DNA of 64,000 bases from Escherichia phage 121Q: sequence record NC_025447.1, one strand, 5' to 3'. Under the pieces are notes generated by a model, which was given only the letters and a program-made list of their open reading frames with translations, did not search any database and was not told the DNA's origin. Positions 2,945-52,032 of the stretch are shown here, piece after piece. Each line of letters begins with the position of its first letter. Position 1 is the stretch's first letter. Both the position numbers and the translations under genes were made by a program.

Positions 2945-3781
2945 TTGATTATGTCATTAGAAAAAATAATCATTTCTGAATTCCGAAAGTATATCATGGA
3001 TTGTGATAGAGATGTGCAGCGTAAGTTCAATGAGTACCTTGACAAATATCCGTATTTGATGTTTAATCCGTTTGAAACTGATGATGATTTATATCTTGGT
3101 TTTTACATAGGATTTACTCAACGAATTCTTCATAAAGATGAAATGAAACAATCTGAGATTTGGGTAGAAACTGACTCATCAGAGTCTAATGTTTTTTATC
3201 TTTATACATATTATGCCGAAATTGTTAGAGATACGACACCTGATGGTTGTCTATTTATACAATCGTCTGATATTGAAAGAATATATATCGAACCTGTATC
3301 TTTAGATATGGTTGCCCAGCTTCCAACTATCCAACAGTTAGGTGCAGACGAATTAACTTATTCTGTATTTGAATATCTAGGTAGAGATGATTTGACTCAA
3401 GAAATTGATAAAATGGTTTCTAAATATACTTCATCACTTATTTCAAATGGTAAACTTAAATTAGAATTAATTTTTGAAGATACTAGTATTAATCCAGTAA
3501 GAGGGGTAACAATTGGAAAAGTTACCATACGTGTTGTTTACGATAATGAAGTATTAGGATATATTTCAAAACGTGGACATGATTTATGTATAATTAGTAC
3601 ATTCGTTGTTTCTCGTAAAAAATGGAATGATTTAATGCAAAAAATCGTGGACGGTAGTAAAATTCGTGATATAATATGTAATGACATGGTAATTATTAAT
3701 CCTGATGTTGACTGTGATGTATATTTTCCAGTTCCTGGATTTACACGAGAAAACTTTAGTAAATTGAAGGATAAGAAATGA
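2945..3781 (+). CDS. hypothetical protein
   Basis: ORF track; 278 aa; co-directional tight packing. Confidence 0.5.
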   Translation: MIMSLEKIIISEFRKYIMDCDRDVQRKFNEYLDKYPYLMFNPFETDDDLYLGFYIGFTQRILHKDEMKQSEIWVETDSSESNVFYLYTYYAEIVRDTTPDGCLFIQSSDIERIYIEPVSLDMVAQLPTIQQLGADELTYSVFEYLGRDDLTQEIDKMVSKYTSSLISNGKLKLELIFEDTSINPVRGVTIGKVTIRVVYDNEVLGYISKRGHDLCIISTFVVSRKKWNDLMQKIVDGSKIRDIICNDMVIINPDVDCDVYFPVPGFTRENFSKLKDKK

Positions 3782-15925: not shown

Positions 15926-16343
15926 AATGTTAAAAATTCCACCTAAGTCGTTAACACATCTTATTGAATGTGGTGTAATATTTTCCGAAGGTGATACCTC
16001 ATCATACACATCGGTCGATGAACCTTATAATTTTTCATACCAATCTTATAAAAATAATTCTAAAATTTCTTGTAGAGAGGCTGAAAACATATTAATAGAT
16101 GTTTCGTTACATAATGTTCCGAAATTTTACATTGATATCTTTGGTGATTCTTTGACAATTCGAACATATGATTATTTTATTAACAAAGACCTCTTGAATC
16201 TTCCAATTGAACATGATAGTATAGATTCAGAACTTTTCTTTCAACTATCAACTGTTTATGATTTACAGGGTTTAACTGTTGAACAGTTGAATGGTATTTT
16301 TGAGATTTCACGAAACATACGAAGCAGGAACACAAATGTCTAA
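15915..16343 (+). CDS. hypothetical protein, EExFFQxST-motif family
   Basis: ORF track; product contains SELFFQLSTVYDLQGLT. Confidence 0.45.
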   Translation: MGSEMLKIPPKSLTHLIECGVIFSEGDTSSYTSVDEPYNFSYQSYKNNSKISCREAENILIDVSLHNVPKFYIDIFGDSLTIRTYDYFINKDLLNLPIEHDSIDSELFFQLSTVYDLQGLTVEQLNGIFEISRNIRSRNTNV

Positions 16344-16746
16344 TATTTTAAATGAAAAAACAGTTGATGTTGCTATTGGCGTTCTTAACACCGCAACTTC
16401 ATTTCAGAAGAAACACAGTGTTGTATACTTTGGTGAAGATTGTTGGCTGAACTATACTAATAATTCGTTTATAATTCGTGTAGAGGCTGATGATATTGGA
16501 TTAACCGTTCAGGTAGGATATACCAAAACTGGTAAACAAATCACTGTCATTGTCGATAAACTTACGTCTTCTTTTTATGATAGTATAAATGATTGTGAAC
16601 ACTATAGTTCAACATTTTATGATACCGAAGAAGAACATTTTATGGATAGTACTGTTAAAGAGTTAGCTATTCCATATAATCTAATGAAAGCCGTGAGTGA
16701 TTTAATTTTAAAATATAAAAAAATAGGAGTTACTAATGCAATTTAA
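16336..16746 (+). CDS. hypothetical protein, EExFFQxST-motif family
   Basis: ATG at 16336 (MSNILNEK...) overlapping upstream stop; product contains EEEHFMDSTV. Confidence 0.45.
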   Translation: MSNILNEKTVDVAIGVLNTATSFQKKHSVVYFGEDCWLNYTNNSFIIRVEADDIGLTVQVGYTKTGKQITVIVDKLTSSFYDSINDCEHYSSTFYDTEEEHFMDSTVKELAIPYNLMKAVSDLILKYKKIGVTNAI

Positions 16747-17182
16747 TGGTAAAGTTTCCAAAGTAGGTTTGGTTTTTGAAAACTGTGAATTTGTTGATAT
16801 TGATGTAAAGAATGTTTTATGGATGCATATTGCTGATGAGAAGACTCTTTGTAGCCGTTTTTCAAACGGACTGACAATTAGTACTGTTATCGGTGAGTTT
16901 GGTATTGCTTTACGCAGCAATACACCATCTGATTTCATGGATAACTCTACATTGTTGGAACGTTTGAAAATGCGTGACGTGACACACGTTTATCTTTATG
17001 ATACTAACGGTGTTATTCAACGTTATGTAGTCGAATGGGCTGATTACAACCTTAATGGGCAATATTCAGTTAACCAGCGTGTTCAACTAACGCCCGGTGG
17101 AAATATTGTGTTTGTTAGTTCAACTGGCAAATTAATCAGTGTAGATGATAAAAACATTGACCTATTCACAGCATATAACTAA
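16736..17182 (+). CDS. hypothetical protein
   Basis: ORF track. Confidence 0.45.
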   Translation: MQFNGKVSKVGLVFENCEFVDIDVKNVLWMHIADEKTLCSRFSNGLTISTVIGEFGIALRSNTPSDFMDNSTLLERLKMRDVTHVYLYDTNGVIQRYVVEWADYNLNGQYSVNQRVQLTPGGNIVFVSSTGKLISVDDKNIDLFTAYN

Positions 17183-17193
17183 TACGAGCTTCT

Positions 17194-17613
17194 ATGAAAA
17201 CAATCAAAATTCATTTCAAAGACACTTGGACAGAAGTAAGTACTGGTAATATTCAGGATATTTTATATAGTACTGAAACTATTCATGTTTATGATGAAGA
17301 AACTGGTGCCGAGCAGTTAAAAGTTTTGCATCGTAGTGTTGGTGAGCACACTGAATATGGAATTAAACATACTCGTGAATTACTTAATACTAATCACATT
17401 GAAACCCGTAAAGCAAACTTATCAAAAGAAGAAATGTTTGATTTCATCCTGAACCATAAAGTTCATATTGAACCTGATGGGTCGATATGGGAGAACACTG
17501 CTGGACAAAAAGTGCTGAAAAAATATCATGTTTCTATTGATAATGTAAAAATGTCAGGGTATGATTTGGAAGATGCAATTAATGAATATGTATCTAGGCA
17601 GAGGGCAAATTGA
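17194..17613 (+). CDS. hypothetical protein
   Basis: ORF track. Confidence 0.45.
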   Translation: MKTIKIHFKDTWTEVSTGNIQDILYSTETIHVYDEETGAEQLKVLHRSVGEHTEYGIKHTRELLNTNHIETRKANLSKEEMFDFILNHKVHIEPDGSIWENTAGQKVLKKYHVSIDNVKMSGYDLEDAINEYVSRQRAN

Positions 17614-18129: not shown

Positions 18130-18471
18130 ATGAACTTAAGTTCAACAATTCAGTACTTGAGCAGTAACTTCGAGAAAATTATTTCTCGCGGTGGGATGAT
18201 TGTACACCCAGAAACAGAGGAAATGTACATCATTGGATTTGATAAAAATTCTTATGATCAAGTACTTGTAATTTCCAAGTTAGAAAGTTATAATGAAGTT
18301 GTTCAGTTTTGCTGTACCGAATTTGGTATCTATATTAAAGACGCTGAAACTAATACAATTTCGCATTATTTTTACCACACACTGATGGGTACTAAAGATT
18401 TCGGATTGAAGTTCAATGATTTAGTACAATGTCACTATATGTTTAAAACCTTCCCAGCTAGTGGGCACTAA
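18130..18471 (+). CDS. hypothetical protein
   Basis: ORF track. Confidence 0.45.
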   Translation: MNLSSTIQYLSSNFEKIISRGGMIVHPETEEMYIIGFDKNSYDQVLVISKLESYNEVVQFCCTEFGIYIKDAETNTISHYFYHTLMGTKDFGLKFNDLVQCHYMFKTFPASGH

Positions 18472-18484
18472 GGAGTATATCAAT

Positions 18485-19273
18485 ATGAGCAACATTTTCT
18501 TCAAAACTATTTCTTTCAAAAAAGCATCTTACTCCTACGCCTACGTTGATGGTAAAGTGCTTAATATTGTACTGGATGGTGTTGATGTACCAGTTGAATT
18601 TAAAACACATGAAGAAGCAGTTGAAGGTGCTAAAGAATTGAATTCAATTCTTAATGGTGAAGTAAGTCAAAAACAAAATGTAAAATCTGATTTAGATGTA
18701 CTTTTGGAAAAAATCAAAACTGGTGAAGTATTAGAAATTTTAGACAACTGTAATGAAAAACTTCGTAATGTAGTTAATAATGTTCGTGACCAGATTCAAG
18801 AAAAAGCACTAGAGCAAGCATTCAAACATGTATCCAAGAATGCTGAATCTCGTATTGATGGTATGGTTAAAAATCTTGATGATGTACTATCCCATCTCTT
18901 TACTAAAGAATACGAACAAGAAGTTGAAGAAGAACCAGTAAAAGAAACCAAAAAAGAAAAACGTAGCTTTGGTTCAGGTGATGATGTGTTTGGCTTTACG
19001 AATGTCCGAACAAGTGCAGATGAACCAAAAGAAATTAGTGAGATGCTCATTGGTGACATGACAACTAAGCAGCTTCGTAATGAAATTGACAAGTTTGTAA
19101 CTAGTTGTATCAAATCAGAACGTGCACAAAGTATGTTTAAAAGCATTAGTGAGAACTTTGGTCCAGAAGCAACTGAGCAGGCACTAACTGCATTTAAAGA
19201 ATTGATTTATAATGTAGCCATTAGCAATCCAGATAAAACACTTGAAGAAGTTCTACGTGACAATTTCAAATAA
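18485..19273 (+). CDS. hypothetical protein
   Basis: ATG at 18485 after AAGGAG RBS; track ORF 18461-19273. Confidence 0.5.
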   Translation: MSNIFFKTISFKKASYSYAYVDGKVLNIVLDGVDVPVEFKTHEEAVEGAKELNSILNGEVSQKQNVKSDLDVLLEKIKTGEVLEILDNCNEKLRNVVNNVRDQIQEKALEQAFKHVSKNAESRIDGMVKNLDDVLSHLFTKEYEQEVEEEPVKETKKEKRSFGSGDDVFGFTNVRTSADEPKEISEMLIGDMTTKQLRNEIDKFVTSCIKSERAQSMFKSISENFGPEATEQALTAFKELIYNVAISNPDKTLEEVLRDNFK

Positions 19274-19315: not shown

Positions 19316-20470
19316 TTATGCGTTGTAACCAACTATTACGACTGAGCAGTCAAGCGGTTCTACTACTTTTAAAATCACATTATCATCTTCATCCACTTGT
19401 ATTTCGCTATGAACTACATGATTGTCTGAAGAATATAATTGAACTTGTGGTAGTGCTTTACCATGTTCAGTTACTGGAACTGAGATAGAGTACATAGAGT
19501 CTTCACCGAGAACCCACTCACTTAAAGTATATTCTTTATGGAAAGGAGTAGTATGCAGTGTTTTTCCGATTATACTCAAAGAAACAGGTAAATTATCAGT
19601 TTGATACACAGTAATATTACCTTCTGCGTCTACAGAAAGATCTACACCAACTTGATATAAGTCACCACTGTATGCTTGAAGTGCTAAGTACTGTCCACGA
19701 TCATGAACATCAAATGGAACAACCGCAGAAAATACACCTTCCGAAACAGGTTCAAATTGGGATAGAAGAACTGATGTAACAAAATCAATATCCTCACCAC
19801 TTTCAAGAACATCAAATTCCACCACTTTAGTGTTATAATATGGAGAAGTGAGCGTAGCAGTACCTTTCCCTGATTGTGTGATAACATCAACTGGAATTGT
19901 AAATGCATCATTAACAAATTGGGTAGTAAAGTATTCTGTCCCGTCTGGTAATACGATTGTTATTACCATACCGTTAGTATCAATTTCTGAACCAGTGTTG
20001 AATAATTTACCACTAATTGAGTCATTACCAACAAATACTGGTGAAATGAGAATATTATCTATATCACGATCTATAATACCACATTCAGGTGTATACATAT
20101 GATACAAGGTTTGTGAACTACCTAAAATTGTTTTATGTAGCATGAATTTATATACAAATCCAGTATCAGTTTCTTGTGGCTCTTCGGAATATCCACGAAC
20201 AAAGAAACAATTTTTATTAATTTCACTTAATAGTTGGTCATTAGTTTTATTGTAATTTAATAGATAACCTTTATTATCTTTAGTTGTTATTTGTACTTTA
20301 CGATATATTATATTAGTTCTGGGATCAACTAAATCATATAATCTATGGCTTCTTTGGCGATAGATTCTAATATTTTTTAGTCTAGTTCCATCGTTGAGGA
20401 TTGCACCATCAACAACATAACCACATTCACCAAACTTATAGCGTCCAGCCGCAGCAATTGACCTTGACAT
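19316..20470 (-). CDS. hypothetical protein (384 aa), lone minus-strand gene
   Basis: Long ORF; GGAGGG RBS 5 nt upstream of ATG; AATAAATA late-promoter-like motif upstream on minus strand. Confidence 0.55.
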   Translation of the reverse strand: MSRSIAAAGRYKFGECGYVVDGAILNDGTRLKNIRIYRQRSHRLYDLVDPRTNIIYRKVQITTKDNKGYLLNYNKTNDQLLSEINKNCFFVRGYSEEPQETDTGFVYKFMLHKTILGSSQTLYHMYTPECGIIDRDIDNILISPVFVGNDSISGKLFNTGSEIDTNGMVITIVLPDGTEYFTTQFVNDAFTIPVDVITQSGKGTATLTSPYYNTKVVEFDVLESGEDIDFVTSVLLSQFEPVSEGVFSAVVPFDVHDRGQYLALQAYSGDLYQVGVDLSVDAEGNITVYQTDNLPVSLSIIGKTLHTTPFHKEYTLSEWVLGEDSMYSISVPVTEHGKALPQVQLYSSDNHVVHSEIQVDEDDNVILKVVEPLDCSVVIVGYNA

Positions 20471-20586
20471 TTATCCCTCCATTGGTATAATTATTATAAC
20501 GTATTTATTATGCATATCCAAAAAATGAGCTTGACTGGTGTATGATTTGGTGTTATCATGTAGTGAATGAATAATGAGGTGTTTTT

Positions 20587-35825: not shown

Positions 35826-36119
35826 ATGATCAGTACTTCAGTTAATGAAAGCATCGTCGCTGACGTAGAAATGGTTAAAGAATGTGCAGATGAAACTCTT
35901 CGTGATATGTACATTAATGATTTAATTACTGAATACGGTAGTCGTGGTGTACACGAATTTATTCGTTTAAGTGGAGAGTTGATGAAAAATCGAATTCGTA
36001 TGAAGCTTAACGTACATCCAAAAGCATGGGCATTTACATTAAAATACGCAGAAGATATTGTGAATTTGCGTCGAACTGAAGTATATGAACGTTTACACAA
36101 TGGTATGTTAGATAAATGA
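35826..36119 (+). CDS. hypothetical protein
   Basis: ORF track. Confidence 0.4.
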   Translation: MISTSVNESIVADVEMVKECADETLRDMYINDLITEYGSRGVHEFIRLSGELMKNRIRMKLNVHPKAWAFTLKYAEDIVNLRRTEVYERLHNGMLDK

Positions 36120-36171
36120 TTGTAAAATAGGAATTCTTAAATGAATTCCTTTTTGTTTATAAGGTATAGTA

Positions 36172-36393
36172 ATGAAATATATAGTACTTGTACTGATATT
36201 ATTCAGTACTGTTGTAAGTGCTAAACAAAAAGAATATGTTAAATGTATAAATTACGAAGAGAAATATGTTGAAACATATAAAAAAAGTATAATTAAAAAC
36301 GTTTCTATTACTGACCGAGGAACAATCATTGTACTTAAAAATGGGTTAATTATGTTATATAAACCACACGTTAAATGTGAAATTATTAATTGA
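36172..36393 (+). CDS. hypothetical secreted protein (signal peptide)
   Basis: N-terminus MKYIVLVLILFSTVVSA. Confidence 0.4.
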   Translation: MKYIVLVLILFSTVVSAKQKEYVKCINYEEKYVETYKKSIIKNVSITDRGTIIVLKNGLIMLYKPHVKCEIIN

Positions 36394-36400
36394 GGAAATT

Positions 36401-36973
36401 ATGAATCGTAAAGGTCGTTTTAAAGTATCAAAAAAGAACAAAAGTTCTAGGTTTAAACCTATTGTTTTAACAGTTAAATCTAACAAAGATTTAACTGCAC
36501 TTAGTAAAAAGATAATTTCATCTAAGATTGAAGTATCATACGTAAATTCATTAAAATATATGAATGTCAAACCACTGGACCAACTCATTTCACTTATATT
36601 TGAACGTAATGATTTTGAGATATCAGTAGATGATTATAGAGCCTATAATGCTGGTTTCATTAATGTTACTTGTAATAAAAAACTAACTGAGTTGGAAAAT
36701 TTGTCATGTATAATAAATCTAGATAAAGGTGTTGTGAAGTACCATTTTGTACATTTCACTAATATCAATAATGGAATGGGTGTACAATCCAGACCTATAG
36801 TGCCTACGTGTGATGTTACTAAATTAGCAAAGCTCAATGATGAAGAATATTTTCAAGAAAGCATTGTAACTGAGCATTTAGATGATATAATAGCTACTTA
36901 CAAAGAATGCATATGGGTGTTGAATGCTATAAAACCTAAATTGTGTTTAATGAATATTGTTCGTGATTTATGA
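36401..36973 (+). CDS. hypothetical protein, EExFFQxST-motif family
   Basis: ATG at 36401 after GAGGAAA; product contains DEEYFQESIV. Confidence 0.45.
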   Translation: MNRKGRFKVSKKNKSSRFKPIVLTVKSNKDLTALSKKIISSKIEVSYVNSLKYMNVKPLDQLISLIFERNDFEISVDDYRAYNAGFINVTCNKKLTELENLSCIINLDKGVVKYHFVHFTNINNGMGVQSRPIVPTCDVTKLAKLNDEEYFQESIVTEHLDDIIATYKECIWVLNAIKPKLCLMNIVRDL

Positions 36974-36986
36974 ATGGGGAATCGTA

Positions 36987-37430
36987 ATGAGTTGGGTAAA
37001 TGTTAATAGTATTGAACTTAACGAACAAGATATTTTTGCATTTGTAAATTTAACTAATAACACAGTACTAAAAGGGCGTTTGTTCAGTGCTAGTGATGGG
37101 TACAAATGGATCTCTTTGATGGATGATAGTGGTGTGATTTATAATGTAATGCAATTACCCCAATGGGTATATAGTAACACTGCTGACGATGTTCTTACCG
37201 CAGTTATGCGTGAGTTTGAAAAACTCCCAGGTGGTGATATCAAAAACAAAGTTTTTAATGCAGAACGTAAAAATTATACAGCACAGCAATTGGAATCCCT
37301 TGCCATTGCTGCTTATCAAGCTGCTATTAAGAAGCCAGAGTGCGTTATTCTTAAGTATGTACCAGACTTAAAACTTACGTTGGAAGACATGGATGCATTC
37401 ATTTTTACATCTGAACTTGAACAGTACTAA
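36987..37430 (+). CDS. hypothetical protein
   Basis: ATG at 36987; track ORF 36957-37430. Confidence 0.45.
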   Translation: MSWVNVNSIELNEQDIFAFVNLTNNTVLKGRLFSASDGYKWISLMDDSGVIYNVMQLPQWVYSNTADDVLTAVMREFEKLPGGDIKNKVFNAERKNYTAQQLESLAIAAYQAAIKKPECVILKYVPDLKLTLEDMDAFIFTSELEQY

Positions 37431-37545
37431 TTTAACTTTGGGACAACCATTCTTATTATGATATAATGTTTTATGTCATTCGATATAAATGACAACGGAA
37501 CTATAAATATTATAGTAAAATTTATCTCTTATAGGAGTTATAAAA

Positions 37546-37929
37546 ATGGTTGATAAATGGAATAAGAAAGATCCATCACATGATGTTGATATTTCTGGTC
37601 TAGACAATGCACATAAGCACAAGTATCTAGATTCACTAGGTCTTCTAAAACCAGACCAAAGTCTTGCACATGATCGTCCATCCCGTGAAAAAGCATTTAG
37701 CCTAGAATCACTAGGTCATGAGCTTAATCGTGTGTTTGAGGATCACCCAATCTATGTACGTGATATTATCGAGAAACTTAAAGTAACTCCTAAAGAGCAC
37801 TTTAAAGCAACTGTACACTCTGCATTCCGTGCATTACATGAATCTCTAAAGAAAACTCACAATCTTCGTAAAATTCATGATGAAATCGTGAATGCAATCG
37901 AAAGTGAAAAACATAAGTTCAAGAAGTAA
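37546..37929 (+). CDS. hypothetical protein (shares motifs with 38175-39686)
   Basis: ORF track; YLDSLGLLKPDQ and VTPKEHFKATVHSAFRAL resemble segments of the downstream 503-aa protein. Confidence 0.5.
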   Translation: MVDKWNKKDPSHDVDISGLDNAHKHKYLDSLGLLKPDQSLAHDRPSREKAFSLESLGHELNRVFEDHPIYVRDIIEKLKVTPKEHFKATVHSAFRALHESLKKTHNLRKIHDEIVNAIESEKHKFKK

Positions 37930-37935
37930 TAAAAA

Positions 37936-37968
37936 GGGTTGACTAAGGTCAGCCCTTTGTTGTATCAT
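37936..37968 (+). promoter_or_regulatory. stem-loop terminator overlapping promoter (PeSL-like cassette, variant)
   Basis: GGGTTGAC-TAAG-GTCAGCCC hairpin, then TTTGTTG and TATCAT. Confidence 0.45.
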
Positions 37969-38117
37969 AACTTCTCAATATAACTGAGGTATCATATATG
38001 CAAGGTTTAAAATTTGTAGTTGCTGCACTCATCGCCGCAGTACTGGTTGGTGGTGTATTCTATGTAGTGGATCAAAAAGTAAATCCACCTGCACAAGAAC
38101 AATCTAAGTAACAAAAT

Positions 38118-38150
38118 AAGGTTGACTTCGGTCAGCCTTTTCTTTATACT
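38118..38150 (+). promoter_or_regulatory. stem-loop terminator overlapping promoter (PeSL-like cassette)
   Basis: AAGGTTGAC-TTCG-GTCAGCCTT + T-rich; TATACT downstream. Confidence 0.5.
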
Positions 38151-38174
38151 ATAAATATAGACATAGAGAAAAAA

Positions 38175-39686
38175 ATGAAATCTATGGAGAGAAATCAAAT
38201 GCCAAGTAATTTTACTGATAAAAATGGTGGTAACATGGCTGGTCACTCTGATAAATGGAGTGAACGCAACCGCCGTCCAAATAGTTATCAAGCAGGTCAA
38301 GGTTCACGTGGGTCACGTAACCAAGGAACTGGTCTAGCTGGTAAAGCAAACGCAGAAGCAGGTGAAGTTAAGAGTACTGAGAACATGACTGAGCTAGAAA
38401 AGCTACGTTATGTTAACTCATTAGGTCTTCTTAACGCAACACAAAAACAACGCCTTGCTGATATGGAACGTGCTGAGAAAGAACAAGCAGTTCCTAAAGA
38501 AGAACCAAAAGCAGAAGTACCTAAAGCTGCTAACCCTGTTAAAGAGTTATCAGATAACTTAGGTAAGATCTTTGCTAACAAACCACAGTTGATTCAGGGT
38601 ATTGTCAAAGCACTACAGGCAGTTCCTAAAGAAGAACTCAAAGGTAAAGCACAAGCTGTACTTGATGTAATGAAAGGTAATAAGAGCACTGAACCAACTG
38701 AAGTATTCAGTACTATCATGCGTGCACTTGAAGGTACACACAAAGAAGATTCCAAAGAACCTGAACAGGGTGAAGCAAGTCTTGATGGTATTCTTAAAAC
38801 TTTTGATAATATTGGTAAAGCAGACCGTGCTAATGCCCAGCAAGTCAAGAATGTACTGGCTAAACTTGAAAACCGTTTAGAAGGTAAAGACGATAAGGTT
38901 AAGCTCGTATCAGATGCAGTTAACAGTGCACTTAAATCTTATGTACAAGGTGAGAAAAGTCGCTTCGTAACAGCTATGGATGCTGCATTCAACACTATGA
39001 AAAAGTATGAAGCAGAACATGGTGAGAAGGTAACACCAGATGGTTATCTAAAGCGTGCAGATGAAGAGGGTGCAGTTGAACAGAAAGATGTTGAGCCTGA
39101 GCAAGAAGAAATACCTGATACCGTTGATATGGATGGATACATTCATCGTCCTGAGATGGAAGAGTTTGGGTCAGATAAAGAAGGTTTTGAACATGCAATG
39201 GCAGTATATAAAGCATTAGTTAAAAATCCAGATTATGCTAACCGTTTTGTTGACGAGTTTGATAGTGCATGGAATAACTACAAAGAGAAAGGTTATGACT
39301 TCCCTGCTGAAGCTGCATTCTTTGAACTTGGTAAACTATTAGCTAAACATGGAATTGACGTTGGTTCATCTGATTCCGAAGGTATGGAAGAAGAACATCT
39401 TGAAATGACCGATAAATCAATTCATGAACTTCAAAAGCTAATGATGTGGATATCCGAGATTGGCAAAAAAGCAGGTGCTGATCGTAAAAGTATCAACAAA
39501 AACATTAGTTGGATTAAAGATAATGTTGGTAACAATGCTCGTAAACTTCAAAAGGCGTGGGCTGATTTAGTAAATGGTGCAGATGATGTTGACATTGAAT
39601 CACCAGAAGCATATGAGTATGCACTAACTACACTTGATAACTCATTCAAAGAGTACGACAGTGGTGTTGGAAAGGATAAAAAATAA
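38175..39686 (+). CDS. hypothetical acidic protein (503 aa) with internal repeats
   Basis: Long ORF flanked by terminator cassettes; repeated NSLGLL and AVPKEE/VPKEELK segments. Confidence 0.55.
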   Translation: MKSMERNQMPSNFTDKNGGNMAGHSDKWSERNRRPNSYQAGQGSRGSRNQGTGLAGKANAEAGEVKSTENMTELEKLRYVNSLGLLNATQKQRLADMERAEKEQAVPKEEPKAEVPKAANPVKELSDNLGKIFANKPQLIQGIVKALQAVPKEELKGKAQAVLDVMKGNKSTEPTEVFSTIMRALEGTHKEDSKEPEQGEASLDGILKTFDNIGKADRANAQQVKNVLAKLENRLEGKDDKVKLVSDAVNSALKSYVQGEKSRFVTAMDAAFNTMKKYEAEHGEKVTPDGYLKRADEEGAVEQKDVEPEQEEIPDTVDMDGYIHRPEMEEFGSDKEGFEHAMAVYKALVKNPDYANRFVDEFDSAWNNYKEKGYDFPAEAAFFELGKLLAKHGIDVGSSDSEGMEEEHLEMTDKSIHELQKLMMWISEIGKKAGADRKSINKNISWIKDNVGNNARKLQKAWADLVNGADDVDIESPEAYEYALTTLDNSFKEYDSGVGKDKK

Positions 39687-39693
39687 ACATTTA

Positions 39694-39730
39694 AAAGGTT
39701 GACTTCGGTCAACCTTTTTTTGTAAATATA
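39694..39730 (+). promoter_or_regulatory. stem-loop terminator overlapping promoter (PeSL-like cassette)
   Basis: AAAGGTTGAC-TTCG-GTCAACCTTT + TTTTTT. Confidence 0.55.
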
Positions 39731-39757
39731 AAAGAGGAATTAAGAAGAGGGATTACA

Positions 39758-40009
39758 ATGAAAAAATATATTATATTTGGAATTGTATTATTTTCCAGTA
39801 CTAGTTATGGTGCAGATTATCATTGCTCCGTAGCAAGACAGGATTTCAGAAATGGGGATTTCTATACCACTTCATACACAAAAGGAATAATACACGACAT
39901 CGACACAACTATTGGATTTAATGCATTTGATAACAAAGATTCATATACTTCAGGTATACTATCTGAGCGTAAGACTGATGTAATGGGAATAGAAAAAGAG
40001 TTCCGGTGA
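39758..40009 (+). CDS. hypothetical secreted protein (signal peptide)
   Basis: N-terminus MKKYIIFGIVLFSSTSYGA. Confidence 0.45.
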   Translation: MKKYIIFGIVLFSSTSYGADYHCSVARQDFRNGDFYTTSYTKGIIHDIDTTIGFNAFDNKDSYTSGILSERKTDVMGIEKEFR

Positions 40010-40019
40010 TTCAGTAGCA

Positions 40020-40343
40020 ATGTGCAATGACATTGAAAGTACTAAAACAATTTATTATAATAATGAACGTAATTATCGTTTTCATAATTTAACCACAAAT
40101 AAAAGTTTACTATTTTACAATTGTAAAGAAGTAAAACTCCCACCCGACAATAGCTGTAACCCGACGAACCCATCACCAGCACAATGTAATACTCAATCTG
40201 AACCTGATAACAATAAAAAAGACAAAGATAAAGATAAAAAAGAAGACAAAAAACCTTTAAAAGATAAAAAGAAAGATAAAAAACCTAATCCGTTTAAAAA
40301 TAATAAACCAGCACAACCCGATATGACGTGTAAAATAAAATAA
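40020..40343 (+). CDS. hypothetical Lys/Asp-rich protein
   Basis: ORF track; KDKDKDKKEDKK low-complexity tract. Confidence 0.35.
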   Translation: MCNDIESTKTIYYNNERNYRFHNLTTNKSLLFYNCKEVKLPPDNSCNPTNPSPAQCNTQSEPDNNKKDKDKDKKEDKKPLKDKKKDKKPNPFKNNKPAQPDMTCKIK

Positions 40344-40352
40344 GGATATATA

Positions 40353-40772
40353 ATGAAAAAGATTTTTTTAAGTATTATTTTAGTACTTTTTAGTTTTAAT
40401 GTATATGCAGCAGATGCTAAACAGGTTGCAAATACAGTAAAAGATGTTATAGTAGATAATGCTCCTACATTAGAGGAAATTGGGGTAAAAACTTGTGATA
40501 TTGTAATATATAATTTAGTTAATGATGAACGAGTTATGTTGAATACGTATGAACAAGTAGTCCCATTGGTTGAATCTGGTGATGCTTTTAGCTTTACATA
40601 TAAAGTTAAATTAACAGGAGGGGTTGAAGTTAATCTTGACATTGATACCGCTTCAGTACTAAAAGATAAACTAGGATATGTGTTCAATCGTATTCGTGAA
40701 GAAGGTCATCTTAAGTATGTTTATGAAAGTAAAATACTAAAACGTGCAATAGTTATAGAAAACTGTAAATGA
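40353..40772 (+). CDS. hypothetical secreted protein (signal peptide)
   Basis: N-terminus MKKIFLSIILVLFSFNVYAA. Confidence 0.45.
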   Translation: MKKIFLSIILVLFSFNVYAADAKQVANTVKDVIVDNAPTLEEIGVKTCDIVIYNLVNDERVMLNTYEQVVPLVESGDAFSFTYKVKLTGGVEVNLDIDTASVLKDKLGYVFNRIREEGHLKYVYESKILKRAIVIENCK

Positions 40773-40779
40773 TAATAAA

Positions 40780-40813
40780 AGGGTTGACTTCGGTCAGCCT
40801 TTTTTGTTATGAT
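40780..40813 (+). promoter_or_regulatory. stem-loop terminator overlapping promoter (PeSL-like cassette)
   Basis: GGGTTGAC-TTCG-GTCAGCC + TTTTTT; TATGAT downstream. Confidence 0.5.
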
Positions 40814-40841
40814 GTTGATATTAACTACAGAGGATAAAGTA

Positions 40842-41483
40842 ATGACTAAGCAAGAAATATTCAAAACTTTAATTGACATTTTGCGTCCATCAAAAACTCG
40901 TTGTGCGATGGAGTTTGATATTCCTTATGCTGAACGCGTAATCTTTCCACAAGTTAAAGCTGCTGGACTTACTTTGCTTGGAATGGGGATGTACTCTGTA
41001 GTAGTTGAACATAAAAACTATCCTGGGCGTGCATTTAAAGTAACCACTTCACGCTGGGATGGTTTTCGTGCTTATGCAAAGTACTGCATTGAAAACGCAG
41101 GAACCAAGTTTCTTCCAGTGATCTACAGTGCCAACGAACAAGGAAACTTTGGATGGTATGAGATGGACAAGTACTATCCTATAATTAAACAAAAAAATAA
41201 TTATGATGACTTTGTTAGTACTAAAATTGGAGATTTATATTCTTATGCACATGCTGGTCAGTACGCTACTTCAGTGAATGATATGCGTGGTAATTCTGAA
41301 GAGATTGCTATTGCAACGGTCGCTGCTAACATCATGAAAGAGTTTCACGGGCGTTTTGTACCAGACATTCATTCAAGTAATGTAATGATGGATAAAGATG
41401 GGAATGTATTCATTACTGATCCTCTTTCGTGTGATGTGCGTAGAGAAATACCAATTACTGAAGAAGATCCAGTTTTTTATTGA
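40842..41483 (+). CDS. hypothetical protein
   Basis: ATG at 40842 after AGAGGA; track ORF 40809-41483. Confidence 0.45.
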   Translation: MTKQEIFKTLIDILRPSKTRCAMEFDIPYAERVIFPQVKAAGLTLLGMGMYSVVVEHKNYPGRAFKVTTSRWDGFRAYAKYCIENAGTKFLPVIYSANEQGNFGWYEMDKYYPIIKQKNNYDDFVSTKIGDLYSYAHAGQYATSVNDMRGNSEEIAIATVAANIMKEFHGRFVPDIHSSNVMMDKDGNVFITDPLSCDVRREIPITEEDPVFY

Positions 41484-51668: not shown

Positions 51669-52031
51669 ATGAACGGGATAGAATTATCTTTCGTTGGTCA
51701 ATTACTAGTAATGGCGTATACATTTATCTTCTCACTGAATGCATTCGTGTGCATTGGGAAGTACTTCCATAAGCGACCATTATCAAATATATATGATGTA
51801 ATCCAAAAGAGATATAGTCCAGCATATACTGTGTTGGGTACAGTATTCAATTTTGGTTTTATTGTATTAATAATTGGACTGTTCACATCCTCTTTGAATA
51901 CAATAACCTTCGGTCTTATGATATGTTCATTGGTATTAGCCGTAATTATATGTTGTTTAGTACTGCACCTTGTGGTACTATTGTATATAAAGATCTCTGA
52001 AATCCACCAACGTTTGGGTATGAGGAAATAA
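51669..52031 (+). CDS. small polytopic membrane protein, tandem paralog 7
   Basis: ATG at 51669; track ORF 51606-52031. Confidence 0.4.
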   Translation: MNGIELSFVGQLLVMAYTFIFSLNAFVCIGKYFHKRPLSNIYDVIQKRYSPAYTVLGTVFNFGFIVLIIGLFTSSLNTITFGLMICSLVLAVIICCLVLHLVVLLYIKISEIHQRLGMRK

Positions 52032-52032
52032 T

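What the first reader, a model, noticed from the sequence alone, without database searches (positions are those of the whole stretch)
37546..39686. Acidic 503-aa repeat protein and a smaller paralog, each insulated by terminator cassettes
The two products share peptide blocks (YLDSLGLLKPDQ vs YVNSLGLLNATQ; VTPKEHFKATVHSAFRAL vs AVPKEELKGKAQAVLDVM). Their charge and repeats are reminiscent of abundant internal or scaffold-like proteins, but no T4-style MKTYQEFIAE targeting peptide is present.
Basis: partly seen in the sequence, partly recalled or inferred. Interest (0 to 1): 0.4.

Follow-up and report, generated by a model that had tools for sequence, protein, structure and literature searches.

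The report
Two late-expressed jumbo-phage virion proteins
These two neighbouring genes of a PBECO4-like giant E. coli phage encode related all-helical proteins that published mass spectrometry already places in the virus particle, so the finding is real but largely known, and where the proteins sit in the particle and what they do is still open.

Summary
The window is an Asteriusvirus (PBECO4/121Q-like jumbo myovirus, 99.3-99.7% identical). Both ORFs exist as described: 37546..37929 (127 aa) and 38175..39686 (503-aa maximal ORF; the conserved start is M9 at 38199, giving 495 aa). They are true paralogs (hhalign 98.7%, E 2.6e-16). p127 corresponds to residues 12-181 of the long protein, minus a Gly/Ser/Arg-rich segment.

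Orthologs were detected in purified virions of phAPEC6, JP4, RaK2 and CBB. RefSeq and PHROGs already call them 'virion structural protein'.

New here:
- The only two sense-strand TATAAATA (T4-type late promoter) sites in the 64 kb lie 37 and 18/42 nt upstream of these genes, inside an otherwise early-type region.
- The 'terminator cassettes' are a stereotyped terminator-plus-sigma70-promoter unit that occurs 8 times in the window.
- The long protein is a conserved N-terminal module (65-73% identity) joined to divergent, gained-or-lost helical cassettes (34-41%).

Most likely role (inferred, about 0.4): head-internal proteins of the prohead core or inner body. No fold or family match gives a function.

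The parts
37438..37467 (+). Sigma70-like promoter candidate upstream of p127 (TTGGGA, 18 nt, TG-extended TATAAT)
   Evidence: Consensus scan, 10 of 12 matches with TG; sequence read. This is a consensus match only; function was not shown.
37502..37509 (+). TATAAATA, T4-type late promoter motif, 37 nt before the p127 ATG
   Evidence: One of only two + strand sites in 64 kb, where 13 +/- 3.7 are expected on both strands. Conserved in PBECO4, G17 and phAPEC6. In the phAPEC6 structural module, 7 of 7 such sites are intergenic, in the sense orientation, and 24-64 nt upstream of gene starts, including the major capsid and scaffold genes.
37546..37929 (+). p127: 127-aa short paralog, 14.8 kDa, pI 9.05. 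It has a disordered N-terminus, a short conserved 'YLDSLGLL' helix, and a four-helix core (aa 53-126).
   Evidence: ORF; phrog_16530 at 3.6e-56; AF2 model with core pLDDT 82-89. Identical to JP4_541 and 100% identical by tblastn to the phAPEC6 locus holding gp037c; both are MS-detected.
37929..37963 (+). Intrinsic terminator hairpin (GGGTTGAC-TAAG-GTCAGCCC plus a T-rich tail). Its TTGACT also serves as a -35 for TTGACT-18-TATCAT, ahead of the small ORF.
   Evidence: -17.6 kcal/mol, z -6.0; pattern family; promoter geometry; ARNOLD terminator annotated in G17.
37998..38111 (+). p37: 37-aa single-pass membrane peptide ORF lying between the two cassettes. It belongs to the locus but not to the paralog family.
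   Evidence: phrog_35037 at 2.2e-29; annotated in PBECO4, G17, phAPEC6 and JP4; absent from the phAPEC6 virion table.
38118..38139 (+). Terminator hairpin GGTTGAC-TTCG-GTCAGCC plus T-run. The embedded TTGACT, a 17-nt spacer and TATACT (38122-38150) form a sigma70-like promoter.
   Evidence: -12.4 kcal/mol, z -4.9.
38150..38157 (+). TATAAATA late promoter motif fused to the -10 element (TATACTATAAATATAG). It lies 18 nt before ATG 38175 and 42 nt before ATG 38199.
   Evidence: conserved in relatives; control.
38175..39686 (+). p503 maximal ORF; the probable real start is M9 at 38199 (495 aa, 55 kDa, pI 5.1)
   Evidence: ORF; phrog_20398 at 1.8e-250. 'MP...' is the start shared by 14 of 19 aligned relatives and by the short forms. 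A GGAGAG sequence lies upstream of 38199. Virion MS of orthologs.
38199..38372 (+). N-terminal segment aa 1-58 (MPSNFTDKNGG..HSDKWS..RRPNSYQAGQGSRGSRNQGTG..GKAN): predicted disordered, basic, yet conserved
   Evidence: pLDDT below 50; 69% mean pairwise identity among 16 long forms; also present in the 156-180 aa short forms.
38373..38486 (+). Conserved helical segment aa 59-96 containing EKLRYVNSLGLL
   Evidence: K68, Y71, L75 and G76 are invariant across the long and short families; 65% identity.
38487..38531 (+). Pro/Glu/Lys/Ala-rich linker aa 97-111 (first QAVPKEE copy; weak DNA tandem repeat)
   Evidence: TRF period 12-15, 2-2.7 copies at 38485-38527; pLDDT below 50.
38532..38735 (+). N1 four-helix module aa 112-179, the family-defining core that is homologous to p127 aa 53-126
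   Evidence: hhalign alignment; 73% identity among long forms; many invariant columns.
38778..39023 (+). M2 helical cassette aa 194-275
   Evidence: AF2 helices 195-274; 34% identity among long forms; remote similarity to M4.
39024..39164 (+). Acidic disordered linker aa 276-322
   Evidence: The 50-residue block 301-350 of the 503-aa ORF has net charge -10; low pLDDT at 289-303.
39165..39365 (+). M3 helical cassette aa 323-389, absent from phAPEC6/JP4-type orthologs
   Evidence: Alignment A1; column occupancy 0.49; phAPEC6 and JP4 proteins are 417 aa.
39405..39683 (+). M4 helical cassette aa 403-495; a related module exists as a stand-alone 146-aa protein elsewhere
   Evidence: AF2 pLDDT 79-93; P0093 matches profile positions 425-524 only.
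39693..39718 (+). Intrinsic terminator after p503 (AAAAGGTTGAC-TTCG-GTCAACCTTTT plus T-run)
   Evidence: -14.2 kcal/mol, z -5.0; ARNOLD terminator annotated in G17.

Best explanation
p127 and p495/p503 are paralogous proteins found only in RaK2-like jumbo phages. They are made late in infection and end up in the virion.

Each gene is its own small late transcription unit. A T4-type late promoter (TATAAATA, read by the phage's gp55-like sigma factor) sits just downstream of a sigma70-like promoter, and a strong intrinsic terminator closes the unit. These units are embedded in a long run of small early-type genes.

The family-defining part is the N-terminal module. It consists of a conserved but intrinsically disordered basic Gly/Ser/Arg/Asn-rich peptide, a short 'EKLKYxNSLGLL' helix and a four-helix bundle. 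I infer that this module is what gets the protein into the particle. In the long form it carries fast-diverging helical cassettes joined by acidic disordered linkers.

My most likely placement is inside the head. The proteins would be prohead-core-derived internal proteins, and so candidates for the DNA-embedded inner body seen in 121Q and phAPEC6 and/or for ejection into the host. That would make them functionally analogous to T4 internal proteins or phiKZ inner-body proteins, but without a T4-type cleavable targeting peptide.

Shown: paralogy, modular architecture, the promoter and terminator signals, and virion association of orthologs.
Inferred: actual late transcription, the incorporation role of the N-module, the head-internal location, and any role after ejection.
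For: Virion association: MS detection in four phages of three genera, namely phAPEC6, JP4, RaK2 and CBB.

Late expression:
- The only two sense-strand TATAAATA sites in 64 kb precede exactly these genes, and the motif is otherwise depleted (3 observed, 13 +/- 3.7 expected).
- In the phAPEC6 structural module, 7 of 7 sites are intergenic, in sense, and 24-64 nt upstream of genes including the major capsid and scaffold genes. A late sigma factor is annotated there.
- The same motif class was proposed as the late promoter in CBB and GAP32 (PMC5259590).
- A relaxed motif flags the window's third MS-confirmed virion gene, the ortholog of gp077 at 42.88 kDa.

Architecture:
- hhalign 98.7% for the paralogy.
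- All-alpha, beads-on-a-string AF2 models.
- The N-module is 65-73% identical among long forms, against 34-41% for the C-terminal cassettes, with M3 present in about half of them.
- p503 is a local divergence hotspot: 83.7% identity to G17, against 95-100% for every neighbouring gene.
- Cassettes exist as stand-alone proteins elsewhere.

Head-internal reading (circumstantial):
- 121Q and phAPEC6 have a phiKZ-like inner body whose proteins are unidentified (PMC5646251; PMC7247149).
- T4 IP/Alt genes are non-essential, poorly conserved and linked to the host arms race (PMC9026906). The divergence of p503 fits that pattern. That T4 and phiKZ internal-protein genes also form paralog sets encoded away from the head-gene cluster is from my own recollection, not from a paper read here.
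- Helical, charged and disordered proteins are unlike fibres, sheath or baseplate parts.
Against: - Nothing localises the proteins within the virion.
- The MS lists that contain them also contain likely contaminants (RecA, SSB, PhoH, ClpP).
- JP4 abundances are about 30-80 fold below an abundant virion protein. That argues against a bulk inner-body constituent.
- There is no T4-type CTS and no conserved [L/I]-x-E site in the N-terminal region. Yet the major capsid protein appears to be cut at LTE|S.
- There is no sequence or fold similarity to any known internal, ejection or scaffold protein.
- The phAPEC6 authors favoured RCC1-domain proteins as inner-body candidates.
- TATAAATA is a sequence signal only. 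No transcript data exist for this phage group in the literature I could search.
Confidence: 0.4

Rival explanations
1. They are external or peripheral virion components. Examples would be capsid decoration or cement proteins, adaptors anchoring the unusual head and tail 'hair' fibres of 121Q/phAPEC6/CBB-type phages, or neck/tail accessory proteins. They would be made late and bound to the outside of the particle.
For: The virion MS and late promoter evidence is the same as for the best explanation and does not distinguish inside from outside. 121Q and phAPEC6 have unassigned decoration densities and fibre-anchoring proteins (PMC5646251; PMC7247149). Low copy number in JP4 fits a peripheral adaptor. 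The fast-evolving C-terminal cassettes could be surface-exposed.
Against: Decoration, fibre and tail proteins are typically beta-rich or Ig-like. These proteins are all-alpha four-helix units on long disordered acidic or basic linkers. A conserved basic Gly/Ser/Arg-rich disordered N-terminus is more typical of nucleic-acid-contacting or core-contacting proteins. The family is also present in genera whose fibres differ.
Confidence: 0.25
2. They are prohead assembly factors, that is auxiliary scaffold or core proteins. They would act during head assembly, and only remnants would persist in mature particles.
For: The proteins are helical, charged and elongated with a modular architecture. Late promoter. 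Low abundance in mature JP4 virions. T4 prohead cores contain several such minor proteins, gp67, gp68 and IPIII, with IPIII affecting assembly (PMC9026906).
Against: A dedicated scaffold (gp226c) and protease (gp227c) are encoded next to the capsid gene. Coverage in mature virions reaches 29-57%, which suggests largely intact protein. There is no conserved T4-type cleavage site. Assembly factors are usually conserved, but p503 is the most divergent gene of its neighbourhood.
Confidence: 0.15
3. They are not virion components. They would be abundant late (or early plus late) cytoplasmic proteins, for example nucleic-acid-binding or host-takeover factors, that co-purify with particles.
For: All four proteomes list obvious non-structural proteins. 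Both genes also have sigma70-like promoters and sit among early-type genes next to a T7 gp0.7-like kinase. JP4_543 has only 2 peptides.
Against: Detection is consistent across four independent preparations and three genera, with high coverage: 48% for gp037c, 56.6% for CBB_38 and 20 peptides for RaK2 gp275. The late promoter motif is otherwise reserved for morphogenetic genes.
Confidence: 0.1
4. The long protein is an SMC/SbcC-type 'chromosome segregation protein', as annotated for phAPEC6 gp035c.
For: The phAPEC6 record's note cites a weak SbcC/SMC resemblance at 0.039.
Against: There is no SMC, SbcC or ABC-ATPase domain in Pfam, even at E<=1. There is no match to solved structures by profile. 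The model has no ATPase head or long antiparallel coiled coil. The resemblance is compositional, from charged helices.
Confidence: 0.02

Closest known systems
PHROG families 16530 and 20398 ('virion structural protein' of RaK2-like jumbo phages: PBECO4 gp325/gp323, phAPEC6 gp037c/gp035c, 121Q gp199/gp201 by synteny, RaK2 gp275, CBB_38, GAP32_032)
   Same: Direct membership: E 3.6e-56 and 1.8e-250, 99-100% identity to the PBECO4 and phAPEC6 orthologs, the same gene order, and the same flanking hairpins.
   Different: Nothing of substance. This lineage has a shorter C-terminal tail (...SGVGKDKK instead of ...GNVTxWEKDIMSKYGK) and retains cassette M3, which phAPEC6 and JP4 lack.
[quoted passage not shown]
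   Same: From PMC9026906: small virion-associated proteins that are non-essential, poorly conserved between relatives, and carry a shared N-terminal part with variable bodies. p127 is small and basic like the IPs. From my own recollection, not checked here: the T4 IP genes lie outside the head-gene cluster.
   Different: There is no 10-residue CTS (MKTYQEFIAE-like) and no conserved L/I-x-E cleavage site. The shared N-terminal part is about 180 aa rather than 10. The long form is acidic. There is no sequence or fold similarity. Copy number looks low, whereas T4 has about 300 copies of each IP. Head-internal location has not been shown.
phiKZ/SPN3US-type inner-body and ejection proteins
   Same: These phages have a bubblegram-visible inner body. 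These are phage-group-specific proteins of no recognisable fold. From my own recollection, not checked here: the phiKZ inner-body proteins form paralogous families.
   Different: No sequence similarity: the phAPEC6 authors found none to any phiKZ inner-body protein, and no PHROG, Pfam or BFVD link was found here. Processing at S/A/G-x-E is not testable. RaK2-like phages are T4-related (gp23-type capsid protein, gp21-like protease, gp55-like sigma), not chimalliviruses.
T4-type late transcription units (gp55-dependent TATAAATA promoters)
   Same: The same 8-bp motif, its position a few tens of nt upstream of the start codon, its depletion elsewhere, and its association with morphogenetic genes. 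A gp55-like sigma factor is encoded by the group.
   Different: No gp33 or gp45 homologs were reported in CBB. Here the late motif is fused directly to a sigma70-type -10 element and to a terminator hairpin that supplies the -35.

Membership tests
RaK2-like 'virion structural protein' family (phrog_16530 / phrog_20398) | Significant profile match over most of the protein | tested here: met
   p127: 3.6e-56 to phrog_16530. p503: 1.8e-250 to phrog_20398 and 5e-38 to phrog_16530.
RaK2-like 'virion structural protein' family (phrog_16530 / phrog_20398) | Presence in purified virions | not testable with these tools
   Not testable for this phage. Published MS for orthologs: phAPEC6, JP4, RaK2, CBB.
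T4 internal proteins (IPI/IPII/IPIII) | About 10-residue N-terminal capsid targeting sequence of the MKTYQEFIAE type | tested here: not met
   The N-termini are MVDKWNKKD and MPSNFTDKNGG (or MKSMERNQ for the maximal ORF).
T4 internal proteins (IPI/IPII/IPIII) | Removal of the propeptide by the gp21-type protease at L/I-x-E | tested here: not met
   No [LI]xE motif is conserved in at least 70% of the p503 family anywhere. In the p127 family the only conserved site is IIE76, inside the helical core. Actual processing cannot be tested here.
T4 internal proteins (IPI/IPII/IPIII) | Small, basic proteins | tested here: inconclusive
   p127: 14.8 kDa, pI 9.05 (met). p495: 55 kDa, pI 5.1 (not met).
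T4 internal proteins (IPI/IPII/IPIII) | Located inside the capsid with the DNA and ejected into the host | not testable with these tools
   No localisation data were found in any paper read.
phiKZ-type inner-body proteins | Sequence or fold relationship to phiKZ inner-body proteins | tested here: not met
   No such family appears among PHROG hits. BFVD Foldseek returns only the protein's own family. The phAPEC6 authors report no similarity.
phiKZ-type inner-body proteins | Processing at S/A/G-x-E by the prohead protease | tested here: inconclusive
   Conserved STE165, ALE178 and SPE470 sites exist in the p503 family. The motif is short, the sites lie in or beside helices, and the protease here is T4 gp21-like.
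SMC / SbcC chromosome segregation proteins | ABC-type ATPase head domains with a long coiled coil and hinge | tested here: not met
   No Pfam hit at E<=1; no PDB profile hit; the model is four short helical bundles.
T4-type late gene | TATAAATA in the sense orientation a few tens of nt upstream of the start codon, in an intergenic position | tested here: met
   Sites at 37502 and 38150; both intergenic; control 7 of 7 in the phAPEC6 structural module.
T4-type late gene | Phage encodes a gp55-like late sigma factor | tested here: inconclusive
   Not in this window. Annotated in the close relative phAPEC6 (gp237c) and reported for CBB (CBB_244).
T4-type late gene | Transcript appears late, with its 5' end just downstream of the motif | not testable with these tools
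   No transcriptome for an Asteriusvirus was found.
Rho-independent terminator | G+C-rich hairpin followed immediately by a U-run, downstream of a stop codon | tested here: met
   Eight copies of GGTTGAC-NNNN-GTCARCC in the window against 0 expected.

The most novel reading that the evidence does not exclude
The roughly 180-residue N-terminal module would be the packaging or anchoring device of RaK2-like jumbo phages. It consists of the conserved disordered MPxxFxxKNGG...SRNQGTG peptide, the EKLKYFNSLGLL helix and a four-helix bundle. On this reading it is a large, uncleaved functional counterpart of the 10-residue T4 capsid targeting sequence. It would load proteins into the head interior or inner body, and in the long forms it would deliver rapidly diversifying helical cassettes into the host as arms-race effectors. 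That would make p127 and p495 the first identified constituents of the 121Q/phAPEC6 inner body or ejectome.
Probability: 0.15. Interest if true: 0.6.

Novelty: already known. Interest (0 to 1): 0.3.

Why it matters
The 350-kb RaK2/121Q-type phages carry about 60 virion proteins, most with no assigned place. They also have a phiKZ-like inner body whose components are unknown. These two paralogs are reproducible virion proteins with an unusual layout: they form a late-promoter island inside early genes, the N-terminus is conserved though predicted disordered, and the C-terminal cassettes are the fastest-evolving part of the neighbourhood. That makes them reasonable, cheap-to-test candidates for internal or ejected proteins, and the N-module is a possible handle for loading cargo into jumbo-phage heads. 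As it stands, the genes and their virion association are already in the literature and in RefSeq, so the finding itself adds little. The promoter and terminator grammar noted here (late-motif depletion, and the terminator hairpin that doubles as a -35) is useful for annotating these genomes.

Tried and rejected
1. Pfam scan of all three ORFs at E<=1 gave only sub-threshold noise: Tau95, Phage_80a_gp11, DUF3786.
2. Foldseek of the p495 model against PDB gave nothing at E<=0.001. Against BFVD it returned only the protein's own family.
4. Profile searches against PDB sequences gave nothing below E 0.2.
5. Is RaK2 ORF276 (130 aa, just downstream of gp275) the small paralog? No: 21% identity and no alignable motifs.
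6. The Gly/Ser/Arg-rich N-terminus followed by 'GKIF' in phAPEC6 gp231c / JP4_332 (next to the portal gene) suggested a shared targeting peptide. BLASTP gave E 0.048-0.13, which is not significant, so this was dropped.
7. Is the long protein built of four copies of one module? Only M2 versus M4 shows a weak signal. N1 is not repeated.
8. Does the - strand TATAAATA at 3252 mark another late gene? No: it is antisense inside + ORF 2945..3781 and no - strand gene follows.
9. Conserved T4-type protease sites were sought as evidence of head processing. None was found in the N-terminal region.
10. Rfam on 36000-41000 gave no RNA family.
11. Peptide-level MS data were sought to look for processed N-termini. 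The JP4 supplement lists proteins only, and no phAPEC6 supplement is held.
12. The Sharanji paper has no proteome or transcriptome.
Full report
**Origin of the window.** The region 37400-39800 is 99.3-99.7% identical to Escherichia phages vB_EcoM_CRJP21 and PBECO4 (genus Asteriusvirus, about 350-kb jumbo myoviruses of the RaK2/121Q group). It is 85-93% identical to some 30 other Asteriusvirus genomes. RefSeq annotates the two genes in PBECO4 as 'virion structural protein' (gp325 and gp323), with a 37-aa hypothetical protein between them.

**Checking the observation.** The quoted peptide blocks are present.

The paralogy is real:
- BLASTP gives E 9e-8.
- Both proteins match phrog_16530. p127 matches profile positions 50-168, and p503 residues 9-188 match positions 1-165.
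- Profile-profile comparison gives 98.7% probability and E 2.6e-16 over 121 columns, aligning p127 with residues 12-181 of the long protein.

Alignment with 171-172 aa relatives (P0078, CBB_38) shows what p127 is. It is the same module lacking the first dozen residues and the Gly/Ser/Arg/Asn-rich segment 'RRxNSxxAGQGSRGSRNQGTGxxGKAN'.

The 503-aa figure is the maximal ORF. Fourteen of 19 aligned relatives, all short forms, and the annotations of PBECO4, G17, phAPEC6 and JP4 start at the 'MP...' methionine (M9, nt 38199). A GGAGAG sequence precedes it. I therefore treat the protein as 495 aa.

Four points need correction:
- Only the long form is acidic (pI 5.19, net -18). p127 is basic (pI 9.05).
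- 'Repeat protein' rests on very little. QAVPKEE occurs twice, and a Pro/Glu/Lys linker gives a 2-2.7-copy DNA tandem signal. One remote module pair, M2 and M4, scores 26.8 by hhalign against 10.9 +/- 2.4 for column shuffles. The conserved N1 module is not repeated.
- p127 has no upstream terminator.
- The cassette is not special to these genes (see below).

**Transcription signals.** Three hairpins with T-runs follow p127, the 37-aa ORF and p503. Their energies are -17.6, -12.4 and -14.2 kcal/mol, with no shuffle of 200 folding as well. G17 carries ARNOLD-predicted terminators at the same sites.

The hairpin GGTTGAC-NNNN-GTCARCC occurs 8 times in the window, where none is expected. All copies are in the sense orientation between + strand genes, from 34.7 to 48.7 kb. 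The same hairpin occurs in RaK2.

Its TTGACT lies 16-18 nt upstream of a -10-like hexamer. The hexamer is a perfect TATAAT in four copies, TATGAT, TATCAT and TATACT in three, and the weak TGTAAA at the eighth copy (39697). So the 'terminator cassette' is a combined terminator and sigma70-type promoter unit.

More telling is TATAAATA, the T4 late-promoter consensus. It is depleted in the window (3 sites against 13 +/- 3.7 expected). Its only two + strand copies lie at 37502 and 38150. That is 37 nt before the p127 start, and 18 nt before ATG 38175 or 42 nt before ATG 38199. The third copy is antisense inside a + strand ORF. Both sites are conserved in PBECO4, G17 and phAPEC6.

As a control I examined 50 kb of the phAPEC6 structural module. 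All 7 TATAAATA sites there are intergenic, in the sense orientation, and 24-64 nt upstream of a gene start. The genes include those for the major capsid protein and the scaffold, and a late sigma factor is annotated nearby. The CBB paper independently proposed ATAAATA as the late promoter of CBB and GAP32 and noted a gp55-like sigma factor (PMC5259590).

Relaxing the motif to ATAAATA gives five intergenic hits in the window. One of them lies 32 nt upstream of the - strand ORF 19316..20470. That ORF encodes 384 aa and 42.88 kDa, matches phrog_10468 'virion structural protein', and has the same mass as MS-confirmed phAPEC6 gp077.

I conclude that p127 and p495 are late transcription islands inside a region of otherwise early-type small genes. 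The neighbours include signal-peptide ORFs and a T7 gp0.7-like kinase. Both genes also have sigma70-like promoters just upstream, so early-plus-late expression is possible. None of this has been shown at the RNA level.

| Phage | Protein | Size | Peptides | Coverage | Source |
|---|---|---|---|---|---|
| phAPEC6 | gp035c | 46.39 kDa | 8 | 28.8% | PMC7247149 Table 1, |
| phAPEC6 | gp037c | 14.83 kDa (the mass of p127) | 5 | 48.0% | PMC7247149 Table 1, |
| JP4 | JP4_541 (identical to p127) | 127 aa | 4 | 29% | PMC12648861 suppl. 2, |
| JP4 | JP4_543 | 417 aa | 2 | 5% | PMC12648861 suppl. 2, |
| RaK2 | gp275 | 64.1 kDa | 20 | 34.3% | PMC3622015 suppl. 3, |
| CBB | CBB_38 | 172 aa | 9 | 56.6% | PMC5259590 Table 4, |

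JP4 label-free abundances are 5.1e6 for JP4_541 and 1.6e6 for JP4_543, against about 1.4e8 for an abundant virion protein in the same table. So they look like minor components. These lists also contain probable contaminants such as RecA, SSB, PhoH and ClpP.

**Architecture and evolution.** AlphaFold2 models are all-alpha.
- p495 (pLDDT 69.5, pTM 0.27) has a disordered N-terminus (aa 1-58) and a helix pair carrying EKLRYVNSLGLL.
- It then has four small helical bundles: N1 (112-179), M2 (194-275), M3 (323-389) and M4 (403-495). Low-confidence linkers separate them, and one linker is strongly acidic.
- p127 is the disordered N-terminus, the LGLL helix and a confident four-helix core (aa 53-126, pLDDT 82-89).

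Among 16 long forms, mean pairwise identity differs sharply by region:

| Region | Mean pairwise identity |
|---|---|
| Disordered N-terminus | 0.69 |
| LGLL helix | 0.65 |
| N1 | 0.73 |
| M2 | 0.34 |
| M3 | 0.34 (present in about half) |
| M4 | 0.41 |

phAPEC6 and JP4 lack M3. Other relatives carry an extra cassette 'X' of about 90 aa.

An exhaustive HMMER scan of 1.84 billion cluster representatives finds only 39 at E<=0.001. Most are 156-180 aa short forms. A few are stand-alone proteins equal to cassette X (81-88 aa) or M4 (146 aa).

Against G17, p495 is 83.7% identical while every neighbouring gene, p127 included, is 95-100% identical. So the picture is a conserved N-terminal module fused to shuffled, fast-diverging helical cassettes. 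The sequence conservation of a region predicted to be disordered suggests that it binds a partner.

**Function.** No search gave a functional homolog:
- Pfam gave nothing.
- PDB sequence profiles gave nothing below E 0.2.
- Foldseek against PDB gave nothing, and against BFVD only the protein's own family.
- The 'chromosome segregation protein' label in phAPEC6 reflects a 0.039-level compositional resemblance and is not supported.

My preferred reading is that these are head-internal proteins: prohead-core-derived, and candidates for the inner body or for ejection. Several circumstantial observations favour it.
- 121Q and phAPEC6 have a bubblegram-visible inner body (91 x 18 nm in phAPEC6) whose proteins are unidentified (PMC5646251; PMC7247149).
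- The genes form a paralog pair encoded away from the head module.
- They combine a shared N-terminal part with a divergent body, and p503 diverges quickly.
- The proteins are helical, charged and disordered.

The shared-N-terminus-plus-variable-body pattern, and poor conservation tied to the host arms race, are described for T4 IP/Alt proteins (PMC9026906). That T4 and phiKZ internal-protein genes also form paralog sets lying outside the head-gene cluster is from my own recollection.

There are clear points against this reading.
- There is no T4-type CTS and no conserved L/I-x-E site. Yet the capsid protein seems to be cut at LTE|S42, which would fit the published 42.2 to 37 kDa shift.
- Abundance is low in JP4.
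- No localisation data exist.

I put the head-internal reading at about 0.4. External or peripheral virion component gets about 0.25, residual assembly factor about 0.15, co-purifying non-structural protein about 0.1, and SMC-like about 0.02. That the proteins are late-made and virion-associated I hold at about 0.9.

**Verdict.** However, the genes and their virion association are already annotated and published, so novelty is 'already known' and interest is modest (0.3).

The most novel reading not excluded is that the N-module is an uncleaved capsid-targeting or anchoring device that loads diversifying cargo into the inner body or ejectome. I give it a probability of about 0.15.

Noticed in passing
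window 34696, 37937, 38120, 39697, 40782, 45277, 46559, 48727 (18-nt hairpin cores, + strand): The stereotyped hairpin GGTTGAC-TTCG-GTCAGCC plus T-run occurs 8 times where 0 are expected. It doubles as a sigma70-type promoter: the TTGACT in the stem is a -35, then 16-18 nt, then a -10-like hexamer (perfect TATAAT in 4 copies; TATGAT, TATCAT and TATACT in three; weak TGTAAA at 39697). Three copies share an identical 25-nt downstream stretch. The same hairpin occurs in RaK2 (L004), so it is conserved across genera.
   Followed up: partly
whole window: TATAAATA is about 4-fold depleted (3 sites against 13 +/- 3.7 expected). This is consistent with selection against spurious late promoters. The only sense-strand copies precede the two genes of the finding.
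   Followed up: yes
window 19316..20470 (- strand), motif at 20502-20508: A lone - strand gene inside the + strand early region encodes a 384-aa, 42.88-kDa acidic protein (phrog_10468 'virion structural protein'). Its mass matches MS-confirmed phAPEC6 gp077. It is preceded by AATAAATA 32 nt upstream, making it another late island. The adjacent + ORF 18461..19273 (270 aa) may be the gp078c ortholog; this was not checked.
   Followed up: partly
window 37998..38111 (+): A 37-aa single-pass membrane peptide (MQGLKFVVAALIAAVLVGGVFYVVDQKVNPPAQEQSK; phrog_35037) sits between the two paralogs. It has its own hairpin-derived sigma70-like promoter and its own terminator, no late motif, and is not in the phAPEC6 virion table.
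   Followed up: partly
window 39660..39686 (C-terminus of p503): This lineage (with P0001 and P0002) ends ...EYDSGVGKDKK. Most relatives end ...DYDxGNVTxWEKDIMSKYGK. That suggests a small deletion or frameshift at the 3' end.
   Followed up: no
proteins P0102, P0104, P0105 (81-88 aa), P0106 (362 aa), P0093 (146 aa): Cassette 'X' and cassette M4 of the long forms occur as free-standing small proteins or fused to unrelated sequence in other metagenomic proteins. Cassette X is absent from this window's protein. This implies domain shuffling. Their genomic context was not examined.
   Followed up: no
window 36172..36393, 39758..40009, 40353..40772, 40809..41483 (+): The neighbours are small ORFs with signal-peptide-like N-termini (MKYIVLVLILFSTVVSA, MKKYIIFGIVLFSSTSYG, MKKIFLSIILVLFSFNVYA) and a T7 gp0.7-like protein kinase (phrog_15752, 1.2e-98). 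This is typical early or host-takeover content. Some relatives annotate neighbours as superinfection-immunity or lipoprotein genes.
   Followed up: partly
window about 52000-64000: GC skew flips sign at about 52 kb, which indicates - strand genes. By synteny with phAPEC6 these should be the RCC1-domain 'DNA condensation' paralogs, which were also MS-detected. No TATAAATA lies upstream of them.
   Followed up: no
L006 (phAPEC6) 16122-17297, major capsid protein: The major capsid protein N-terminus contains LTE|S at residue 42. Cleavage there would remove about 4.8 kDa, matching the published 42.2 to 37 kDa shift for 121Q. This suggests T4 gp21-like L/I-x-E specificity in this phage group.
   Followed up: partly
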